IMG/VR virus record: IMGVR_UViG_3300044807_000039
Coordinates: 1 to 64,000 of that record
DNA from: a virus
Lineage: Duplodnaviria > Heunggongvirae > Uroviricota > Caudoviricetes
Direction: 5' to 3' (one strand)
Length of the DNA stretch: 64,000 bases
The translations under genes were made by a program, and so were the position numbers. Position 1 is the first letter of the stretch; every line of letters begins with the position of its first letter. The notes under the pieces were generated by a model. That model was not told the DNA's origin and ran no database searches. It was given only the letters and a program-made list of their open reading frames with translations. Of the stretch, positions 10,740 through 39,076 are shown one piece after another.

Positions 10740-11630
10740 ATGGGCGCTATTATTTTTCTTGGAATTTTTGCACTGGTCCTGGTGATCGGAATTGCAACGG
10801 CTATGGTTGGACGGGGGGATACTCGAATTGGTGGAATTCTAGCGGCAGTAGTTGCTGCAATCCTATTTGGTATTACTTTCGTTGCTAATAGCGTCACGAA
10901 CGTTGAAGCCCGAACGGTAGGTATCGTTACCGAGTTTGGTAAGGCTACTGGTACTGTTTCTCCTGGTTTCAATTGGGTTGCTCCATGGGCATCCGTTACC
11001 GATTTTCCAACAAGTAACCAGGTTCTCGATCTTGATACAACGGATGAAGATCCGGGCTCAGGTCACAACGTCGCTGTTAAATTTAAGGGCGGTGGCGAAG
11101 GTTGGGTCAATGTTAATATCACCTGGCAGGTCCAGACTGACGATAAGGCCGTGCAGCTTTGGAATAACTGGAAAGACTTTGAGCTTGTAAAGAAGAATGT
11201 GGTCAATCCGCGCGGTCAGGGCATTGTGGCTGAAGTATTTGGTCGGTACGCACCAGAGGACGCTACTGATGGTCAGCGACTCCCAGACTTCAACAAGGAA
11301 GTTATGGATTCATTGAATAAGACACTTGCTTCTAGTGGTATTGTTGTCGAGAACGTTGCTATCAAGAAGGTTGACACGAGCGGGCCGATTCAGGAACGCA
11401 TCAACAACCAGGTAAAGGCTCTGGCAGATCAGAATACATCCAGGATTAAGCAGGACACTGCAAAGATTGATGCTGAAACCAATAAGATTGCACAGCAGCA
11501 ACTCACGCCAGAAGTTCTGGCAAACAAGTGTCTTGATATCGTTAATGCTTGGGATTTTGCCAAGAACGGTCCATTGCCAGCAGCAGGTATTTGTGGTGGT
11601 TCTATTCCGCTCGTCAAGGCTGTAGGTTGA
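10740..11630 (+). CDS. SPFH/band-7 (stomatin/prohibitin-like) membrane protein
   Basis: N-terminal TM helix then ~250 aa SPFH-like domain with C-terminal coiled-coil. Confidence 0.55.
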   Translation: MGAIIFLGIFALVLVIGIATAMVGRGDTRIGGILAAVVAAILFGITFVANSVTNVEARTVGIVTEFGKATGTVSPGFNWVAPWASVTDFPTSNQVLDLDTTDEDPGSGHNVAVKFKGGGEGWVNVNITWQVQTDDKAVQLWNNWKDFELVKKNVVNPRGQGIVAEVFGRYAPEDATDGQRLPDFNKEVMDSLNKTLASSGIVVENVAIKKVDTSGPIQERINNQVKALADQNTSRIKQDTAKIDAETNKIAQQQLTPEVLANKCLDIVNAWDFAKNGPLPAAGICGGSIPLVKAVG

Positions 11631-13745: not shown

Positions 13746-14204
13746 ATGCCAATGACAATCTATAAGGGAACCGGCTCAATGTTCGACGCTGGTGCTGATG
13801 GTTTGGTTAACGCAGTCAATTGTGTAGGTGTAATGGGCGGGGGACTGGCGAAAGTTTTCGCTGACAAATGGCCCCGTATGAATGCCGACTACATTACATA
13901 CTGCAACGAGGGGTTGTTGACTCCAGGTAATATTCATTCCTATTTTTCCAACCTGGAATCCCAGGAAGTCATTCTTAACTTCCCAACCAAGGATGACTAT
14001 CGTGACCCTAGCGAGTTGGAATATATCGAAAAGGGTATGCCGAGTCTGATGAATGTGGCAATTACCTTAGGTTTGACCAAGGTTGCCATTCCTGCACTAG
14101 GCTGTGGTCTAGGGGGACTTGATTGGAAAGATGTATACCCAATTATCGAACGCTATATCGAAATGGTGCCCGGCATTGATTGGATTGTCTACGATCCTAA
14201 GTAA
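13746..14204 (+). CDS. macro-domain protein (ADP-ribose/Appr-1''-p processing)
   Basis: 'GLVNAVNCVGVMGGGLAKVF' macro-domain signature, 152 aa. Confidence 0.75.
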   Translation: MPMTIYKGTGSMFDAGADGLVNAVNCVGVMGGGLAKVFADKWPRMNADYITYCNEGLLTPGNIHSYFSNLESQEVILNFPTKDDYRDPSELEYIEKGMPSLMNVAITLGLTKVAIPALGCGLGGLDWKDVYPIIERYIEMVPGIDWIVYDPK

Positions 14205-14838: not shown

Positions 14839-15042
14839 ATGGCTAATAAGCGATTCCAGGTATGGGTCAACGGACATGCAGATCCAAATCGTCAATTTCA
14901 TAATTACGAACGGGCGGTAGGAGATGCAAATGCTCTTATTCGCAAAGCTCGTTCGAGTGTATGGATTCAAATCAGAGATAACGAAGAAAATAAATTCGTT
15001 GCTGAATCCCGTGATGGCAAGCGCATCAAAGGTAAAAAGTAA
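14839..15042 (+). CDS. small protein, paralogous family member
   Basis: MANKRFQVWVNGH... Confidence 0.45.
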   Translation: MANKRFQVWVNGHADPNRQFHNYERAVGDANALIRKARSSVWIQIRDNEENKFVAESRDGKRIKGKK

Positions 15043-15074
15043 AAACCATAAAAACAACTACTCTAAGGATAACT

Positions 15075-15806
15075 ATGCCCAAGTTGAACCAGCTCATTGC
15101 AGCCCGCCCGACCGTTGCGGCTAAGGCCGATCGTAACTTTACCGATCTTCACAAGCTCGTGCAAAAGGTAGAGCCACTTCGTGGTCTGATTAAGACCTAC
15201 GCGCCGGTTGACGACAACGGCCAACAGCTTCCTTCTGAATCTACCAAGGTTCAAGTTAAGGTTGAGGATGTTATCAAGTCGGTTGGCACCGAGCTTACCC
15301 AGCTGTTTGACCTTGTGCTATCCTTGGAGACTGCTAACGCGGTTGCTAAGGCAGACGTCAAGGTTGATGGTACGGTAATTGCAAAGGACGTTCCGGTTAC
15401 CTATCTTCTTTTCCTTGAGAAGAAGTTGGTTGATATTGGCACCTTTGTGGCGAAGCTTCCGGTACTTGACCCGGGACAGAACTGGAACTACGATGAGAAC
15501 GTGGGAAGCTTTGCAGCGGACCCGGTGAAGACCACTCGTAGCAAGGATGTCCCGCGTGCAACCGTTCTGTATGAGGCAACCGACAAGCACCCTGCGCAGA
15601 TCCGCGAGTTCAACGAGAGCGTTTTGGTTGGTATTTGGACCAAGATTGACTTCTCTGGGGCTATCACAGCGGACCGTAAGCGTGCTATCATGGACAAGGT
15701 TGAGAAGTTGAAGCTTGCTGTTAAGTTTGCTCGTGAAGAGGCTAACAGCCAGGAGGCACCAAGCCAGAACATCGGCGAAAAGTTCTTCGGTTTCCTTTTT
15801 AGCTGA
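15075..15806 (+). CDS. hypothetical protein
   Basis: 243 aa ORF with RBS. Confidence 0.5.
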   Translation: MPKLNQLIAARPTVAAKADRNFTDLHKLVQKVEPLRGLIKTYAPVDDNGQQLPSESTKVQVKVEDVIKSVGTELTQLFDLVLSLETANAVAKADVKVDGTVIAKDVPVTYLLFLEKKLVDIGTFVAKLPVLDPGQNWNYDENVGSFAADPVKTTRSKDVPRATVLYEATDKHPAQIREFNESVLVGIWTKIDFSGAITADRKRAIMDKVEKLKLAVKFAREEANSQEAPSQNIGEKFFGFLFS

Positions 15807-15958
15807 TATGATGTGGAAGGCAGCAACTAGCATACATTAGCTAGGGATACCGTAGGTGCTGCCATGCTGGAATGGGTTAAGCCAGCTCCTAATTTTCCGA
15901 TCGAGCGGTCGGAGCTGCGAGAGCAGGAGACTAAGTATTAGTCTTAGTGTTAATCAAT

Positions 15959-16066
15959 GTAGTTGAACAAAAAGGTTGGTTCAGTGGAGGTTCGAATCCT
16001 TCACCGCGCACCACATGCGCGGTTAGCCCAATTGGTAGAGGCATCCAGCTAATAACGTTCGACTGC
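15959..16066 (+). ncRNA. tRNA-mimic module 1: T-arm + 3' acceptor + CCA upstream of 5' acceptor + D-arm, closed acceptor, 10-bp bracketing helix
   Basis: GGAGG-TTCGAAT-CCTTC ACCGCGC A CCA cat GCGCGGT TA GCC..GGC; helix GTAGTTGAAC(15959-68)/GTTCGACTGC(16057-66). Confidence 0.45.
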
Positions 16067-16127
16067 TGAAATCAGCCTTAGATTATCGCTCTAGTTTCAG
16101 AAACTCGCTTGTTTACCAAATCAAATA

Positions 16128-16258
16128 CATACGGACTACACCTGCCAGACGCAAGTTCGAATCTTGCCGGGGCCTCCAAAGCAATAGGGCAAGCGCTCCC
16201 TATTCACATGGCCTCGTAGTTTAGCGGCATAACGGGCACTATTAAAATGATCTGTATG
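16128..16258 (+). ncRNA. tRNA-mimic module 2 (same permuted order), loop hairpin AATAGGG/CCCTATT, 8-bp bracketing helix
   Basis: GCAAG-TTCGAAT-CTTGC CGGGGCC T CCA ..31 nt.. GGCCTCG TA GTT..AAC; helix CATACGGA(16128-35)/TCTGTATG(16251-58). Confidence 0.45.
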
Positions 16259-16331
16259 CTTAAACGCTGTTGGTGAACTACTATTGCAACAAATTACAGC
16301 CTAGGTCGTCGGATATTCGGCCTAGGCGCTT

Positions 16332-16405
16332 GTGCGGATAGTTTAATTGGAAAAACTTTCCCCGGCCTTTTGGGGAAAATACCTGGTTCGAATCCGGTTC
16401 CGTAC
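16332..16405 (+). tRNA. tRNA-like, possible Arg(CCT) with 8-nt anticodon loop / 7-bp stem (non-canonical)
   Basis: acceptor GTGCGGA/TCCGTAC, D GTTT/AAAC, TTTCCCC-GGCCTTTT-GGGGAAA, T-arm CTGG-TTCGAAT-CCGG. Confidence 0.35.
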
Positions 16406-16560
16406 GCGTGTTAGACGATAAAGATCGAGATGCTAAATGGTATTTTTGGAAATTCGTTCATAACCTGCTGATTCATCCGTTCCTAGCTTTTCCTTGGGAG
16501 CCAAAATGGGCACATCGGGCACATGATTGGACAGCTATAAGGTGTCCGGGCGGGGGCTAA

Positions 16561-16791
16561 ATGGCTAGCTTAAAGAAATGTGCAAGCTGTAAGCGCTATA
16601 AGCTTAATGAAGAAGACTTTAACAAAAACAAGAAGAATCCAGACGGCTTTCAATACAATTGCAAGAGCTGTATGAACACCTATGGCGCAGACTATCGAGT
16701 AAAACCGGAAAACAAGAAGACGGCTGCTGAACGCAATAAGGCATGGCAGAAAGAAAATCCTCGTCACCGAGACGGTAGGAAGAAAACTTAG
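16561..16791 (+). CDS. zinc-ribbon small protein
   Basis: 'CASCKRYK...NCKSC'. Confidence 0.45.
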   Translation: MASLKKCASCKRYKLNEEDFNKNKKNPDGFQYNCKSCMNTYGADYRVKPENKKTAAERNKAWQKENPRHRDGRKKT

Positions 16792-16799
16792 GGAGAATA

Positions 16800-17069
16800 G
16801 TGTTTAATTGGCTGAAGCTATTTTTTAAGCCACGTCGTGGTCAAGTCAGGCATCCTACGGCTACCAAGGTTCCACCTGCTAGCAGCTATCCAACTGCTAG
16901 CTATATGACCCAAGGACAGAAAATCATTCCAGGAATGCTACCAAAGATCAGTTCAACCATACCTAAGCCGCCACCAAATGGATTCCTCAAAAGGAAGAAT
17001 GAACGTCCATGGGAACCAGGTGATAAGCGAATTTCAATAAATGAGTGTAACTGCAAATGCAGAAACTAA
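16800..17069 (+). CDS. hypothetical protein
   Basis: 89 aa. Confidence 0.35.
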   Translation: MFNWLKLFFKPRRGQVRHPTATKVPPASSYPTASYMTQGQKIIPGMLPKISSTIPKPPPNGFLKRKNERPWEPGDKRISINECNCKCRN

Positions 17070-17107
17070 AAAGCGTTTAGAAAAATATTAAAGAAGAGGA
17101 TAAATAA

Positions 17108-17377
17108 ATGGCACTGGGTTATTACATCACTAAGCCTCAAGCAGAAGCACTTATGGTTTGGGATGGATCAAATTTATCGGAGATTGAAGGGTTCGTCTAT
17201 CCGGGGGTTACTATTACAGATAACCTAGATGGAACCTTGACTACTGATGCTAGTTTCTCTAATATCATTCGCCTAGGAAATGCATTGACTTTGCTGGGCA
17301 CCGAGATCGATGTTATTAATGGCCATCAAGAAGTCGAAAGTATTGCCCCCATCTCCTACGTTGTAACTGAGGACTGA
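17108..17377 (+). CDS. hypothetical protein
   Basis: 89 aa, RBS AGAGGA. Confidence 0.45.
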   Translation: MALGYYITKPQAEALMVWDGSNLSEIEGFVYPGVTITDNLDGTLTTDASFSNIIRLGNALTLLGTEIDVINGHQEVESIAPISYVVTED

Positions 17378-17384
17378 TAGATTT

Positions 17385-17485
17385 GCGCCTGTAGTTTAAT
17401 CGGTGGACAATACTAGTTGAAAGCCACTCGGTAGAACACTCCCTCGTTTCAGGGAACGGTTCACGTTCGATTCGTGACGGGCGCG
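17385..17485 (+). tRNA. tRNA-like (His-type D-arm) with ~28-nt insertion in D-loop and 6-nt anticodon loop; possible pseudogene
   Basis: acceptor GCGCCTG/CGGGCGC, T-arm TCACG-TTCGATT-CGTGA, TAGTTTAATCGGT[ins]AGAAC, stem TCCCT/AGGGA loop CGTTTC. Confidence 0.35.
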
Positions 17486-17514
17486 CGTTAACTTTGGAGA
17501 GTTGAGTAGATCAA

Positions 17515-31478: not shown

Positions 31479-31515
31479 ATTGTTGCTAGGAGTTCTCCGG
31501 AACTTCCTAGCCTTT

Positions 31516-31584
31516 GGGGCAAGCGTAGGATGTGTCATAGAGTCTCATAAGCTCTAATGTTAGGGTTCAAATCCCTTTGCCCCA
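31516..31584 (+). tRNA. tRNA with CAT anticodon (elongator Met or Ile2), reduced D-arm
   Basis: acceptor GGGGCAA/TTGCCCC, anticodon AGAGT-CTCATAA-GCTCT, T-arm AGGG-TTCAAAT-CCCT. Confidence 0.5.
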
Positions 31585-31595
31585 ACGTTAATTAA

Positions 31596-37448: not shown

Positions 37449-38000
37449 ATGGATAAAATTAAAAACCTCGTAACAATAAGACACGGATCACATCTGTATA
37501 ATTTAGCTCGTCCAAATTCAGATCTTGATCTCTATACGGTATACACCTTTCTTAATAGACGCTATAGGCCAAAGAAACAGGTCGTGCAGGAAATTGAGGG
37601 TGAAACAGATAGCGTCAAAATTAGCGATGTTAAATTCACCGAGCAAATACACAAGGGAGTTCCACAAGCCCTGGAAGCTCTGTTTGCTGAAAAAGAATTT
37701 TGGTTAGACGCTGATCCCAACTGGGAAGATTTACGCTTGCATTATCGCGATCAAATCAATATTTATACGGTGCTGGATACCTACAAGCGTACAATTCGTA
37801 ATTTTTTTGAGCTAGATGACATTAAAAAGAACAGGCATGGTTTTAGATTACTACTTAATGCAGACAGCATGATCCAGGACGGCTATTTTAATCCAACGCT
37901 CTCCGATGATATGACTGCCGAGATTACAAAATGGGCAAACCAATCGTATGAAAAGCGATTAGAAACCTATCATGACCTACTATGGAGAGTGTTCCGATGA
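37449..38000 (+). CDS. nucleotidyltransferase-fold protein
   Basis: 'GSHLYNLARPNSDLDLY' NTase motif (GS..D.D). Confidence 0.5.
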   Translation: MDKIKNLVTIRHGSHLYNLARPNSDLDLYTVYTFLNRRYRPKKQVVQEIEGETDSVKISDVKFTEQIHKGVPQALEALFAEKEFWLDADPNWEDLRLHYRDQINIYTVLDTYKRTIRNFFELDDIKKNRHGFRLLLNADSMIQDGYFNPTLSDDMTAEITKWANQSYEKRLETYHDLLWRVFR

Positions 38001-39076
38001 AAATAGATCGTGTTTTTGACACAAAGAAATTAGATAAATATATAACCGAAGGATATATTTCCGCGCGCAGGCATCCCCATCTTCCGTTGACCATTTACAA
38101 TTACACTCCTAAAACTCAGTGGGAGAGGAAATGGGATGAGGTTACTAAGCGGTGTCGCGGACTTATTGTAGATTGGCGCGGGGAGGTTGTAGGAAACTGC
38201 TTAACTAAGTTCTTTAATTACAACGAACCCAATGCAGAAGACGTAAGGACTGACGGACCAGTACAGGTTACCGATAAGCTTGACGGTAGCTATTTAGCCG
38301 TTTGTATTTATGAAGGTAACATTGTCACTGCAACTCGTGGTAGCTTTGAAAGTGATCAAGCAAAAGTAGCAGCCCAAATAATTCGTTCTACTACCGAATA
38401 CCAGGATGCATTACGATTCCTGTGCGCAGGTCATAGCACTGCAATCTTTGAGGTTATCTATCCAGAAAACCGTATTGTTTTAGATTACGGCCCAATGCGA
38501 GATATCGTTCTTATTGGTACAATTGCAAACTTTGAACTAGCTGACGGTAAGCAATTATGGACTCCAGCAATAGGATTGAATTGGCCGGGGCAGATTGTAG
38601 AGCATTTTGACTGCAATAGCTTTACCGAAGCAATGGCAATGCCACCCAGAGACAACGCAGAAGGTATTGTAATCTATTTTGAAAATACCGGTGATCGTTT
38701 GAAGATGAAGCAAGATCGCTACATAGAGTTACACAAGCTTATCTTTGATCTTACTCCTAAGCGTATCTGGGAACGTCGTAGCGATGGCGAAAGCCTGTGT
38801 GGTATCCTTCAAGGTCTACCGGATGAGTTCCGAGATGCGGTAGAATTGTTCGACGCAGAGCTATCGTTGCAGGTAGAGCAAGTTCTACAAGAAGTTGACG
38901 CAGCGATGGCTAGAGTGTATGCTAGGCTTCCTGATCCATACACCCGTAAGGATTTTGCGATGGCTGTGCGTAACGAACGTTACTCACACTTGATGTTTCA
39001 AGCACTTGACGAAGATCATGCAGGGCTGCTAGAGTCTGCATGGAAGCTAGTTAAGCCAACCAAAGACTCACTATAA
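37997..39076 (+). CDS. ATP-dependent RNA ligase (Rnl-family)
   Basis: motif I 'DKLDGS' (KxDG), motif IV 'EGIVIY', motif V 'LKMKQD'; adjacent to Pnkp. Confidence 0.6.
   Translation: MKIDRVFDTKKLDKYITEGYISARRHPHLPLTIYNYTPKTQWERKWDEVTKRCRGLIVDWRGEVVGNCLTKFFNYNEPNAEDVRTDGPVQVTDKLDGSYLAVCIYEGNIVTATRGSFESDQAKVAAQIIRSTTEYQDALRFLCAGHSTAIFEVIYPENRIVLDYGPMRDIVLIGTIANFELADGKQLWTPAIGLNWPGQIVEHFDCNSFTEAMAMPPRDNAEGIVIYFENTGDRLKMKQDRYIELHKLIFDLTPKRIWERRSDGESLCGILQGLPDEFRDAVELFDAELSLQVEQVLQEVDAAMARVYARLPDPYTRKDFAMAVRNERYSHLMFQALDEDHAGLLESAWKLVKPTKDSL

What the first reader, a model, noticed from the sequence alone, without database searches (positions are those of the whole stretch)
15959..16258. Two tandem tRNA-mimic modules with reversed half order (T-arm/3'-acceptor/CCA before 5'-acceptor/D-arm)
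Module 1: GGAGG-TTCGAAT-CCTTC, then ACCGCGC-A-CCA, then a 3-nt loop (CAT), then the perfectly complementary 5' strand GCGCGGT followed by TA and a canonical D-arm. Module 2: GCAAG-TTCGAAT-CTTGC, CGGGGCC-T-CCA, a 31-nt loop that itself folds (AATAGGG/CCCTATT), then GGCCTCG-TA-D-arm. In both, a long-range helix (10 bp and 8 bp) brackets the unit exactly where an anticodon stem would sit. The result is an acceptor stem closed by a loop and an open 'anticodon' helix leading out to flanking RNA. Two independent copies with compensatory acceptor pairing argue against chance. Three readings are possible: (a) Y-RNA-type tRNA mimics, given the phage encodes Rsr/Ro60; (b) circularly permuted tRNA genes; (c) acceptor pieces of a two-piece permuted tmRNA-like RNA.
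Basis: partly seen in the sequence, partly recalled or inferred. Interest (0 to 1): 0.85.

Follow-up and report, generated by a model that had tools for sequence, protein, structure and literature searches.

The report
Double tRNA-mimic RNA beside DUF7873 gene
The two reversed-order tRNA look-alikes are real and belong to a roughly 430-base structured RNA that sits directly after an uncharacterised gene (DUF7873) in hundreds of bacterial and phage genomes, an RNA-protein pair absent from Rfam 15 and from the papers I could search.

Summary
Window 15986-16042 (M1) and 16151-16233 (M2) are permuted tRNA-like domains, in the order T arm, 7-bp acceptor, D arm, each set on a long stem.

They are not chance and not decayed tRNAs. 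The same pair lies directly downstream of a DUF7873 gene (window 15075-15806) in about 150 of 160 homologous loci from Actinomycetota, Chloroflexota, Armatimonadota, Deinococcales and many phages. Helices covary, and the 15:48 tertiary pair covaries perfectly in M2. A covariance model built without the window finds the window's M2 at 89 bits (E 3e-20).

The link to Rsr is not supported. The Rsr-binding motif is absent, Rfam YrlA scores 25.6 bits against a cut-off of 69, and the family follows DUF7873 rather than rsr. The phage's likely true Yrl RNAs lie at 22060-22670.

The permuted-decoding-tRNA and two-piece-tmRNA readings are rejected.

The acceptor "loops" look like fused pre-tRNA trailers and leaders: module-specific N73, conserved C74, G+1, frequent U-1. 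I infer RNase P cleavage that exposes CCA ends, as shown experimentally for M. smegmatis YrlA, and an RNP formed with DUF7873. The function is unknown.

The parts
15075..15806 (+). DUF7873 protein gene (243 aa), the conserved partner gene directly upstream of the RNA.
   Evidence: Pfam PF25283, E 2.6e-94. There are 5318 homologues at E<=1e-20 and 2626 clusters at 50% identity, all single-domain proteins of about 245 aa. The RNA follows it in about 150 of 160 loci.
15897..15926 (+). Two 5' leader hairpins. H1 is 15897-15912 with loop GAGC. H2 is 15915-15926 with loop GAGA.
   Evidence: Hairpins with a (U)UGAGC loop and stems of different sequence stand at the same place in NiceHouse, Racecar, Phendrix, L006 and other loci. 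This rests on inspection only. No covariation statistics were run.
15959..15979 (+). M1 stem, 5' strands. Outer helix 15959-15968, inner helix 15974-15979 (the anticodon-stem position).
   Evidence: They pair with 16057-16066 and 16045-16050. The inner helix is 65% paired across 41 loci, with an uncertain register. The 10-bp outer helix lies in an insertion not seen in the closest relatives.
15986..16042 (+). M1 tRNA-like domain. T arm 15986-16002. Acceptor 3' strand plus ACCA 16003-16013. Loop CAT. Acceptor 5' strand 16017-16023. U8 A9. D arm 16026-16042.
   Evidence: Rfam YrlA aligns over 15960-16068 at 25.6 bits. Across 41 loci the structure is 90.9% paired against 42-53% when slid. The 15:48 pair is A:U or G:C in 108 of 118. 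The M2 model scores it 47.8 bits.
16045..16066 (+). M1 stem, 3' strands. Inner 16045-16050, outer 16057-16066.
   Evidence: Complementary to 15974-79 and 15959-68.
16080..16094 (+). Conserved linker motif AGAUUAUCGCUCUAG.
   Evidence: Conserved in A1. YGCUCYR-type motif found in 86 of 118 loci. It is probably an asymmetric internal loop between helices formed with the 5' leader, judged by inspection. It is not a stop codon: bacteria have CCAG or CCAA here.
16111..16146 (+). M2 stem, 5' strands. P2o 16111-16119. Conserved loop AAUCAAAU 16119-16126. P1o 16128-16135. Inner helix 16143-16146.
   Evidence: Across 42 loci P1o (9 pairs) is 87% paired and P2o (6-7 pairs) 84% paired. Every pair shows compensatory changes.
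16151..16233 (+). M2 tRNA-like domain. T arm 16151-16167. Acceptor 3' strand plus UCCA 16168-16178. A 31-nt loop with hairpin 16183-16204. Acceptor 5' strand 16210-16216. U8 A9. D arm 16219-16233.
   Evidence: Model R1, built from 39 other loci, gives 89.4 bits and E 2.8e-20 over 16118-16266. The 15:48 pair is A:U in 99 and G:C in 19 of 118, with no mismatch. The D stem is 96% paired.
16235..16278 (+). M2 stem, 3' strands. Inner 16235-16238. P1o 16251-16258. Conserved loop CUUAAACG 16259-16266. P2o 16270-16278.
   Evidence: UUAAAYG is present in 95 of 118 loci.
16299..16327 (+). Terminal hairpin with loop CGGAUAU, which ends the RNA 4 nt before the next tRNA gene.
   Evidence: The same loop sits on stems of different sequence in NiceHouse, Racecar, Phendrix, L006 and Planobispora. 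The motif SGGAUA is found in only 26 of 118 loci, so it is specific to a subgroup.

Best explanation
The two modules are the two tRNA-like domains of one structured RNA of about 430 nt (window about 15897-16327). It is encoded immediately after the DUF7873 gene and probably transcribed with it and with the flanking tRNA genes.

Shown:
- Each domain is a circularly permuted copy of the upper part of a tRNA: T arm, 7-bp acceptor stem, D arm, and the elbow contacts.
- Each sits on a long multi-tier stem that carries conserved internal loops.
- The gene-plus-RNA cassette is conserved across several bacterial phyla and many phage lineages.

Inferred:
- The sequence that closes each acceptor stem is not a structural loop. 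It is a fused pre-tRNA 3' trailer and 5' leader.
- Host RNase P cuts before G+1. The few remaining bases are then trimmed back to the encoded CCA, or CA is added after C74.
- The RNA therefore ends up as three base-paired pieces, each tRNA-like domain carrying a free CCA end. This was shown experimentally for M. smegmatis YrlA.
- The conserved internal loops (AUUAUCGC; AAUCRAY opposite UUAAAYG) are the likely docking sites for DUF7873. That would make an RNP analogous to Rsr with YrlA.
- In that RNP the tRNA-like domains present the protein to, or compete for, tRNA-recognising machinery: RNase P, CCA-adding enzyme, synthetases, EF-Tu or the ribosome.

The biological role is not known. Its position inside phage tRNA arrays suggests a role in tRNA or translation upkeep.
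For: Synteny:
- blastn of the region hits only unannotated DNA right after DUF7873 homologues in Rhodococcus, Arthrobacter and Gordonia phages.
- The same two modules are there, and also in a Planobispora chromosome, a cyanophage and a Klebsiella jumbo phage.
- Of 160 DUF7873 loci, 114 have exactly two strict modules within 1.2 kb downstream on the same strand and 30 have one. Only 12 hits occur anywhere else.
- An M2 covariance model finds a full-length match in 78 of 80 bacterial loci at 75-125 bits and in about 70 of 80 viral contigs at 57 bits or more.
- Built without the window, that model scores the window's M2 at 89.4 bits, E 2.8e-20.
- No other neighbouring gene is conserved.

Structure:
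- M2 is 86.7% paired against 38-47% in slid controls, and 36 of 37 pairs carry compensatory changes.
- M1 is 90.9% paired against 42-53%.
- The tertiary 15:48 pair covaries, A:U or G:C in 118 of 118 M2.

Processing signals, from 118 non-redundant loci:
- N73 is A in 86% of M1, and U (69%) or G (28%) in M2.
- C74 is present in 84% of M1 and 97% of M2.
- G+1 is present in 90% of both.
- U-1 is present in 42% of M1 and 64% of M2.
- Loop length ranges from 4 to 76 nt.
- NCCA is encoded in 37% of M1 and 31% of M2.
- The window's own tRNA genes show the same C74 (24 of 24) but encode CCA in only 1 of 24. Both modules encode it.

Precedent: M. smegmatis YrlA is cut by RNase P in vivo and in vitro and receives CCA (PMC4201824).
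Against: - No transcript or processing data exist for this RNA. Cleavage, CCA ends and DUF7873 binding are all inferred.
- DUF7873 is near-neutral (pI about 6.2-7).
- DUF7873 has no recognisable RNA-binding fold and no structural relative.
- Genetic linkage could instead reflect a cis role of the RNA for the DUF7873 mRNA.
- The lower stem of M1 could not be resolved into one covariation-supported model.
- The 7-bp acceptor and the T stem were search criteria, so their perfect pairing in my sets holds by construction.
- In one locus (L139) the RNA lies on the opposite strand from the gene.
Confidence: 0.6

Rival explanations
1. They are ordinary YrlA-type Y RNAs that work with the phage's Rsr/Ro60. 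Rsr binds the stem and the tRNA-like domain acts as the effector or gate module.
For: - The architecture is identical to YrlA, and a sub-threshold Rfam YrlA hit covers M1 (25.6 bits, E 0.0045 in an 800-nt search).
- rsr lies on the same strand 6.7 kb downstream.
- In one bacterium (L023) the cassette sits directly upstream of rsr.
- The M2 model also scores the Rsr-proximal modules at 24-46 bits, so the two RNA kinds are related in design.
Against: - No GNCGAAN0-1G motif in 15800-16340. The motif is found upstream of only 14% of M1 and 8% of M2, whereas three copies lie just upstream of rsr.
- M2 gets no YrlA hit.
- No Rfam family reaches its cut-off in 20 diverse loci.
- An rsr homologue lies within the flanks of only 1 of 160 loci.
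- The Klebsiella, Serratia, Rhizobium, Pseudanabaena and Ralstonia phages and most Vibrio phages that carry DUF7873 have no Rsr hit. The 327 Mycobacterium and Streptomyces phages with Rsr have no DUF7873.
- The phage has separate Yrl candidates at 22340-22670.
Confidence: 0.12
2. The RNA acts in cis. The tRNA-like domains are processing punctuation that lets RNase P cut the polycistronic transcript. The DUF7873 mRNA is left with a tRNA-like, CCA-type 3' end that resists exonucleases, in the manner of the MALAT1-mascRNA arrangement or a viral 3' TLS.
For: - The RNA starts 60-150 nt after the stop codon, always on the same strand apart from the one exception.
- No promoter-like or terminator-like site lies between gene and RNA in the window.
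- After an RNase P cut the mRNA would end in the M1 T arm and acceptor strand.
Against: - One tRNA-like element would suffice for this role.
- Instead two distinct domains with different, conserved discriminators are kept across phyla, together with conserved internal loops and, in a subgroup, a terminal hairpin.
- The more conserved domain (M2) is the one farther from the mRNA.
Confidence: 0.13
3. After processing, the domains are aminoacylated. M1 would be charged by LeuRS. The RNP would then act as an amino-acid donor or as a ribosome-directed device, a tmRNA-like or transferase-like role without decoding.
For: - The discriminator is module-specific and conserved across phyla. Its best-known role is synthetase identity (my knowledge).
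- M1 combines A73, A15:U48 and a class-II-type D arm with a 3-bp stem and 11 nt between the strands (84 of 118).
- In many phages that D arm reads UGGCGGAAUUGGCAGACGC, as in bacterial tRNA-Leu. The E. coli LeuRS identity set is recalled from memory and was not checked here.
- Encoded CCA is enriched relative to the phage's tRNA genes.
Against: - No aminoacylation data.
- M2 does not match any single identity set.
- There is no tag frame and no G3:U70 pair.
- Conserved N73 and C74 can also be explained by RNase P and 3'-end processing.
- DUF7873 shows no similarity to known aminoacyl-tRNA-using enzymes.
Confidence: 0.1
4. They are circularly permuted tRNA genes, or the acceptor pieces of a two-piece tmRNA, or decayed tRNA fragments or adjacent-tRNA artefacts.
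For: - The half order matches both permuted tRNA genes and permuted tmRNA genes.
- NCCA is encoded.
- The related phage Moab has a tmRNA, while none is called in this window.
Against: - No anticodon loop. The stems continue into covarying helices.
- ARAGORN calls nothing here.
- No tmRNA family appears at E<=10 in 15700-16500.
- In the window, 3:70 is G-C in M1 and C-G in M2, and G:U occurs in only 5 and 9 of 118.
- The D arm is canonical.
- The candidate stop in the linker is CAG or CAA in bacteria, and peptides ending at the UAA of UUAAACG are not conserved and lie in a covarying helix strand.
- Decay or chance is excluded by conservation and covariation in about 150 loci.
- The two acceptor strands of each module are complementary 7 of 7, which neighbouring tRNA genes would not require.
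Confidence: 0.02

Closest known systems
YrlA (bacterial Y RNA-like RNA; Rfam RF02553; Chen et al. 2014, PMC4201824), especially M. smegmatis YrlA/YrlB
   Same: - Permuted tRNA-like domain in the order T arm, acceptor stem, D arm, with tRNA tertiary pairs including A15:U48/G15:C48, set on a long stem formed by the flanks.
- In M. smegmatis a 7-bp acceptor is cut by RNase P and completed to CCA, giving base-paired halves.
- In M. smegmatis two RNAs are made from one precursor, one with a full tRNA-like domain and one with a T arm.
- Also found in actinophages.
   Different: - No GNCGAAN0-1G motif, and well below the Rfam cut-off.
- Not linked to rsr but to DUF7873.
- Two complete tRNA-like domains in one RNA, with different conserved discriminators.
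- Its own conserved motifs (AUUAUCGCUCYAR, AAUCRAY, UUAAAYG).
- N73-C74 is conserved, where many YrlA have a stable tetraloop.
Two-piece (circularly permuted) tmRNA
   Same: - Gene order: T arm, 3' acceptor strand, ACCA, intervening segment, 5' acceptor strand.
- The intervening segment is excised to give two base-paired pieces with a free CCA end.
   Different: - No tag reading frame and no pseudoknot set.
- No G3:U70 pair.
- A canonical D arm.
- No SmpB connection.
- No ARAGORN or Rfam hit.
Circularly permuted tRNA genes (Cyanidioschyzon merolae type; from my knowledge)
   Same: The 3' half is encoded before the 5' half, with the acceptor strands joined by a short linker.
   Different: Those genes keep an anticodon arm, and their ends fall in a loop and are joined through a circular intermediate. 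Here the 'anticodon' position opens into further conserved helices and flanking RNA, so no decoding tRNA can result.
tRNA-like 3' elements processed by RNase P (mascRNA/MALAT1) and viral TLS (from my knowledge)
   Same: A tRNA mimic is used to recruit tRNA enzymes to a non-tRNA transcript.
   Different: Those are not permuted, are single domains, and have no dedicated protein gene.

Membership tests
YrlA / bacterial Y RNA (RF02553) | tRNA-like domain with T arm, acceptor-like stem-loop and D arm in that order, on a stem formed by the RNA's flanks | tested here: met
   The Rfam YrlA alignment covers model positions 1-114 on 15960-16068. Helices and the 15:48 pair are supported by covariation.
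YrlA / bacterial Y RNA (RF02553) | Score at or above the Rfam gathering cut-off (69 bits) | tested here: not met
   M1 scores 25.6 bits and M2 is not hit. No hit in 20 related loci at the gathering threshold. The Rsr-proximal candidates also stay below the cut-off at 29-34 bits, so this test is weak for phage RNAs.
YrlA / bacterial Y RNA (RF02553) | GNCGAAN0-1G motif near the 5' end, the proposed Rsr contact (PMC4201824) | tested here: not met
   None in window 15800-16340. The motif lies upstream of M1 in 17 of 118 loci and of M2 in 9 of 118, against 7 and 3 expected by shuffling. Three copies lie at 22077, 22238 and 22338 upstream of rsr.
YrlA / bacterial Y RNA (RF02553) | Encoded within about 4 kb of the Ro60 (rsr) gene on the same strand (PMC4201824) | tested here: not met
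   Same strand, but 6.7 kb upstream of rsr. An rsr homologue lies within the flanks of 1 of 160 family loci. No TROVE gene lies within 10 kb in L006, L007 or L008.
YrlA / bacterial Y RNA (RF02553) | Bound by Rsr/Ro60 | not testable with these tools
   Needs an Rsr immunoprecipitation.
Two-piece (permuted) tmRNA | Detected by ARAGORN or by the Rfam tmRNA models | tested here: not met
   ARAGORN finds no tmRNA in the window. No tmRNA family appears at E<=10 in 15700-16500.
Two-piece (permuted) tmRNA | G3:U70 in the acceptor stem and a degenerate D arm | tested here: not met
   Window M1 has G3-C70 and M2 has C3-G70. G:U occurs at 3:70 in 5 of 118 M1 and 9 of 118 M2. The D stems are 96-97% paired.
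Two-piece (permuted) tmRNA | Tag reading frame with a conserved C-terminus and stop codon | tested here: not met
   The UAG or UAA after GCUC in actinophages is CAG or CAA in bacteria and in phage Pam2. Frames ending at the UAA of UUAAACG encode unrelated peptides and lie in a covarying helix strand.
Circularly permuted tRNA gene | Complete cloverleaf after re-joining, including an anticodon stem and a 7-nt loop | tested here: not met
   The flanks of each domain pair with each other in two or three further tiers instead of ending in a loop. ARAGORN calls nothing.
DUF7873-associated double tRNA-like RNA (family defined here) | Lies directly downstream of a DUF7873 gene on the same strand | tested here: met
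   The gene ends at 15806 and the RNA spans 15897-16327.
DUF7873-associated double tRNA-like RNA (family defined here) | Matches a covariance model of the M2 unit built from other loci only | tested here: met
   R1 gives 89.4 bits, E 2.8e-20, full length on 16118-16266. This falls within the 57-125 bit range of family members.
DUF7873-associated double tRNA-like RNA (family defined here) | Family motifs: linker YGCUCYR, AAUCRAY 5' of M2, UUAAAYG 3' of M2; N73 is A in M1 and U or G in M2; C74 | tested here: met
   In the window: AUCGCUCUAG within 16080-94, AAUCAAAU at 16119-26, CUUAAACG at 16259-66, and A73/C74 and U73/C74.

The most novel reading that the evidence does not exclude
DUF7873 and this RNA form a previously unrecognised, widespread ribonucleoprotein. 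RNase P cuts its RNA into three base-paired pieces that display two genuine tRNA acceptor ends. At least one end would be charged: M1, which looks like tRNA-Leu (A73, A15:U48, class-II-type D arm). That would make it an anticodon-less, protein-partnered aminoacyl carrier that acts on the ribosome or in non-ribosomal amino-acid transfer. Large phages would carry it together with their tRNA sets.
Probability: 0.12. Interest if true: 0.95.

Novelty: new variant of a known kind. Interest (0 to 1): 0.8.

Why it matters
- The finding points to a conserved cassette of one protein gene plus one RNA. The protein family has 2,626 clusters at 50% identity. It occurs in several bacterial phyla and in many phages, including cultured SEA-PHAGES isolates. 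The cassette is unannotated in GenBank records, absent from Rfam 15, and not found in the literature I could search.
- It extends the YrlA idea of a tRNA mimic on a protein-binding stem to a second protein partner that has no Ro60.
- It shows that the RNase P and CCA processing seen once, in M. smegmatis, may be the rule for a whole class.
- It gives a directly testable system in organisms that can be grown.
- It explains the 400-500 nt "empty" gaps after this gene in actinophage annotations.
- It warns that the Rsr-proximal RNAs and the DUF7873-proximal RNAs of one phage should not be merged.

Tried and rejected
Searches that found nothing:
- Megablast of 15000-17500 against phages: no match.
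- Rsr as a single query against IMG/VR: no relatives.
- Exact M1 string in IMG/VR: none.
- The source contig is found only once, in Logan SRR24887402, 132 kb.
- One relative's contig had no DNA available.

Weak or uninformative tests:
- Folding energy of 15940-16280 is not unusual (z -1.33), so thermodynamics alone would not have flagged the region.
- A longest-run comparison of cis against trans flanks does not discriminate, because related GC-rich sequences pair across loci.
- MAFFT plus RNAalifold could not resolve M1's lower stem.

DUF7873 searches:
- No PDB sequence hit.
- No PHROG, PADLOC or NCBIfam family.
- The afdb50 library was unavailable.
- A profile search shows only single-domain proteins, with no informative fusions.
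- No paper mentions DUF7873. Other literature searches found nothing on this RNA.
- The Annual Review on Ro60 and Y RNAs (PMC10870794) was not held.

Ideas rejected:
- Tag peptide or tmRNA (see the membership test).
- A conserved third gene in the cassette.

Full report
**1. The observation**

- M1 has a T arm at 15986-16002.
- It is followed directly by ACCGCGC, A, CCA, then CAT, then the perfectly complementary GCGCGGT, then UA, then a D arm at 16026-42.
- M2 has the same order at 16151-16233. Its 31-nt acceptor 'loop' contains a 7-bp hairpin.
- A whole-window scan for this architecture (T loop, 7/7 acceptor, U8, GG in the D loop) returns only these two complete hits. It also returns a partial one at 22377.
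- ARAGORN ordinary tRNAs and nothing at this locus.

One correction is needed. The 10-bp and 8-bp helices are not at the anticodon-stem position. Shorter inner helices sit there (15974-79/16045-50 and 16143-46/16235-38). The longer helices lie one tier further out. M2 has a third tier (16111-19/16270-78).

Folding energy alone is unremarkable (z -1.33).

**2. The surroundings**

- The window comes from a 132-kb actinophage-like contig with about 30 tRNA genes.
- rsr/Ro60 is at 22958-24559 (TROVE plus vWA_Ro60). Its closest relatives, at 55% identity, are in Streptomyces phages.
- The gene immediately upstream of the modules (15075-15806) is a DUF7873 protein (E 2.6e-94).

**3. The decisive lead**

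A sensitive blastn of 15900-16330 hit only unannotated DNA directly after the DUF7873 homologues of Rhodococcus phage NiceHouse, Arthrobacter phages Racecar, Mimi and Talia1610, and Gordonia phages Phendrix and GodonK (annotations).
- These phages carry the same two modules, with different but complementary acceptor strands.
- They share a linker motif (AGAUUAUCGCUCUAR), the sequence CUUAAAYG after M2, and a terminal hairpin with loop CGGAUAU.
- The same arrangement follows DUF7873 in a second metagenomic phage and in the chromosome of Planobispora longispora.
- It also follows DUF7873 in a Pseudanabaena cyanophage and a Klebsiella jumbo phage. One module is seen in Vibrio and Rhizobium phages.

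**4. Scale of the association**

I fetched 80 bacterial and 80 IMG/VR loci that encode DUF7873.
- A strict pattern scan finds exactly two modules within 1.2 kb downstream on the same strand in 114 loci. It finds one in 30, three in 1 and none in 15.
- Only 12 hits occur anywhere else in these loci on either strand.
- I built a covariance model of the M2 unit from 39 loci, leaving the window out.
- That model finds one full-length match after the gene in 78 of 80 bacterial loci, at 75-125 bits.
- It finds one in about 70 of 80 viral contigs at 57 bits or more.
- It scores the window's M2 at 89.4 bits, E 2.8e-20.
- No other neighbouring gene is conserved.
- The protein family is large: 5318 homologues and 2626 clusters at 50% identity, all single-domain.

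**5. Structure**

- M2, 42 loci: 86.7% of cells pair against 38-47% in slid controls, and 36 of 37 pairs carry double changes.
- The two outer helices were not part of my search criteria. They are 84-87% paired, with compensatory changes at every pair.
- Between those helices lies a conserved internal loop, AAUCRAY opposite UUAAAYG.
- M1, 41 loci: 90.9% paired against 42-53% slid.
- The tertiary Levitt pair covaries. In M2, 15:48 is A:U in 99 and G:C in 19 of 118 loci, with no mismatch. In M1 it is A:U or G:C in 108 of 118. A14 is nearly invariant.
- These are therefore real L-shaped tRNA mimics.
- The lower stem of M1 and the role of the AUUAUCGC motif could only be sketched by eye. It looks like an asymmetric loop between leader-linker helices.

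**6. What the acceptor 'loops' look like**

In 118 non-redundant loci:
- N73 is A in 86% of M1. In M2 it is U in 69% and G in 28%.
- C74 is present in 84% of M1 and 97% of M2.
- G+1 is present in 90% of both.
- U-1 is present in 42% of M1 and 64% of M2.
- The rest of the loop is free in sequence and length (4-76 nt).
- NCCA is fully encoded in 37% of M1 and 31% of M2.

The window's 24 Rfam-called tRNA genes all have C74 but encode CCA only once. Both modules encode it. A loop that merely closed a stem would be expected to be a stable tetraloop. The rsr-proximal modules have exactly that (GCAA in the window, UUCG in L023).

I therefore read the loop as a fused 3' trailer and 5' leader. I infer RNase P cleavage before G+1 and a CCA end. 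This is what Chen et al. showed for M. smegmatis YrlA: a 7-bp acceptor, an RNase P cut in vivo and in vitro, CA added, and both halves recovered with Rsr (PMC4201824). It remains inference here.

**7. Relation to YrlA and Rsr**

- The topology is that of YrlA. The Rfam model aligns to M1 end to end, but at 25.6 bits against a cut-off of 69. M2 is not hit.
- No Rfam family reaches its threshold in 20 diverse family loci.
- The proposed Rsr-contact motif GNCGAAN0-1G is absent from 15800-16340 and rare in the family. Three copies lie at 22077-22345, just upstream of rsr.
- Two further permuted modules also lie there. One is at 22377-22413. The other lies within 22567-22666, which scores 29.4 bits with YrlA.
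- Streptomyces phage Moab has homologues of these rsr-proximal modules, and no DUF7873 homologue was found in any Streptomyces phage.
- Among 160 DUF7873 loci, an rsr homologue lies within the flank of only one.
- The phage groups that carry DUF7873 largely lack Rsr, and the reverse also holds.

So the RNA is YrlA-like in design, but its genetic partner is DUF7873.

**8. Rejected readings**

- Decoding permuted tRNAs: there is no anticodon loop.
- Two-piece tmRNA: no ARAGORN or Rfam hit, no G3:U70 and a canonical D arm.
- The apparent conserved stop codon in the linker becomes CAG or CAA in bacteria. Frames ending at the UAA of UUAAACG are unconserved and lie in a covarying strand.

**9. DUF7873**

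- The model is confident (pLDDT 90).
- It has no structural or sequence relative in PDB, BFVD, PHROGs, PADLOC or NCBIfam.
- Its pI is near neutral, with 15 conserved K/R columns.
- That it binds the RNA is inferred only from the exclusive gene-RNA linkage.

**10. Verdict**

It is a member of a widespread double tRNA-mimic RNA family that is missing from database annotation, Rfam 15 and the searchable literature, and that is coupled to an uncharacterised protein.
- Most likely mechanism, confidence 0.6 overall: an RNP whose RNA is processed like a pre-tRNA at two places.
- Higher confidence for the family and its structure. Lower confidence for processing and protein binding.
- Rivals: Rsr-bound Y RNA (0.12), cis-acting 3' UTR or processing element (0.13), aminoacylated carrier (0.10), and tmRNA, permuted tRNA or artefact (0.02).

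Noticed in passing
window 22060-22670: A cluster of likely true Yrl (Y RNA-like) RNAs lies directly upstream of rsr. It holds three GNCGAAN0-1G motifs (22077, 22238, 22338), a T arm plus 7-bp closed acceptor with G3:U70, A73 and loop ACUCAA (22377-22413), and a YrlA-like domain with a GCAA-closed 5-bp acceptor (Rfam YrlA 29.4 bits over 22567-22666). Streptomyces phage Moab has homologues at L001 9890-10008 and 11258-11312.
   Followed up: partly
window 16332-16407: A tRNA gene with a non-standard anticodon loop. ARAGORN reports 'tRNA-???' with the 4-base anticodon cctt in an 8-nt loop, and Rfam tRNA scores 41.1 bits. NiceHouse has tRNA-Lys(ttt) at the corresponding place. It may be a frameshift-type or defective tRNA.
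   Followed up: no
window, all 24 Rfam-called tRNA genes: Every tRNA gene has C at position 74, but only one (ending 8537) encodes the full CCA. The phage therefore relies on CCA addition for its tRNAs, while both M1 and M2 encode NCCA.
   Followed up: partly
L023 2700-4715 (Spongiactinospora sp. TRM90649): DUF7873, M1, M2, a third tRNA-like module with a UUCG-closed acceptor preceded by GGGUCGAAU, and then an rsr homologue all lie on one strand. It is the only locus of the 160 where the two systems are adjacent.
   Followed up: partly
L139 3956-4079: The M2-type RNA (99.5 bits) lies on the strand opposite to the DUF7873 gene, an exception to the same-strand rule.
   Followed up: no
window 15951-16072: In this phage M1's lower stem resembles M2's design: AAUCAAU before the 10-bp helix and UGAAAU after it. 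The region lies in an insertion that the closest relatives lack, so it may be a partial duplication or conversion between the two modules.
   Followed up: no
window 10740-11630, 13746-14204, 37982-39076: Band-7/SPFH, Macro-domain and Rnl1-type RNA ligase genes lie in the same tRNA-rich region. Related contigs also carry Thg1-like and metallophosphatase genes (L006), which suggests a broad tRNA or RNA-repair gene set.
   Followed up: no
window 31515-31585: The tRNA-Met call sits exactly at the Rfam cut-off (29.0 bits), so it is a borderline tRNA.
   Followed up: no
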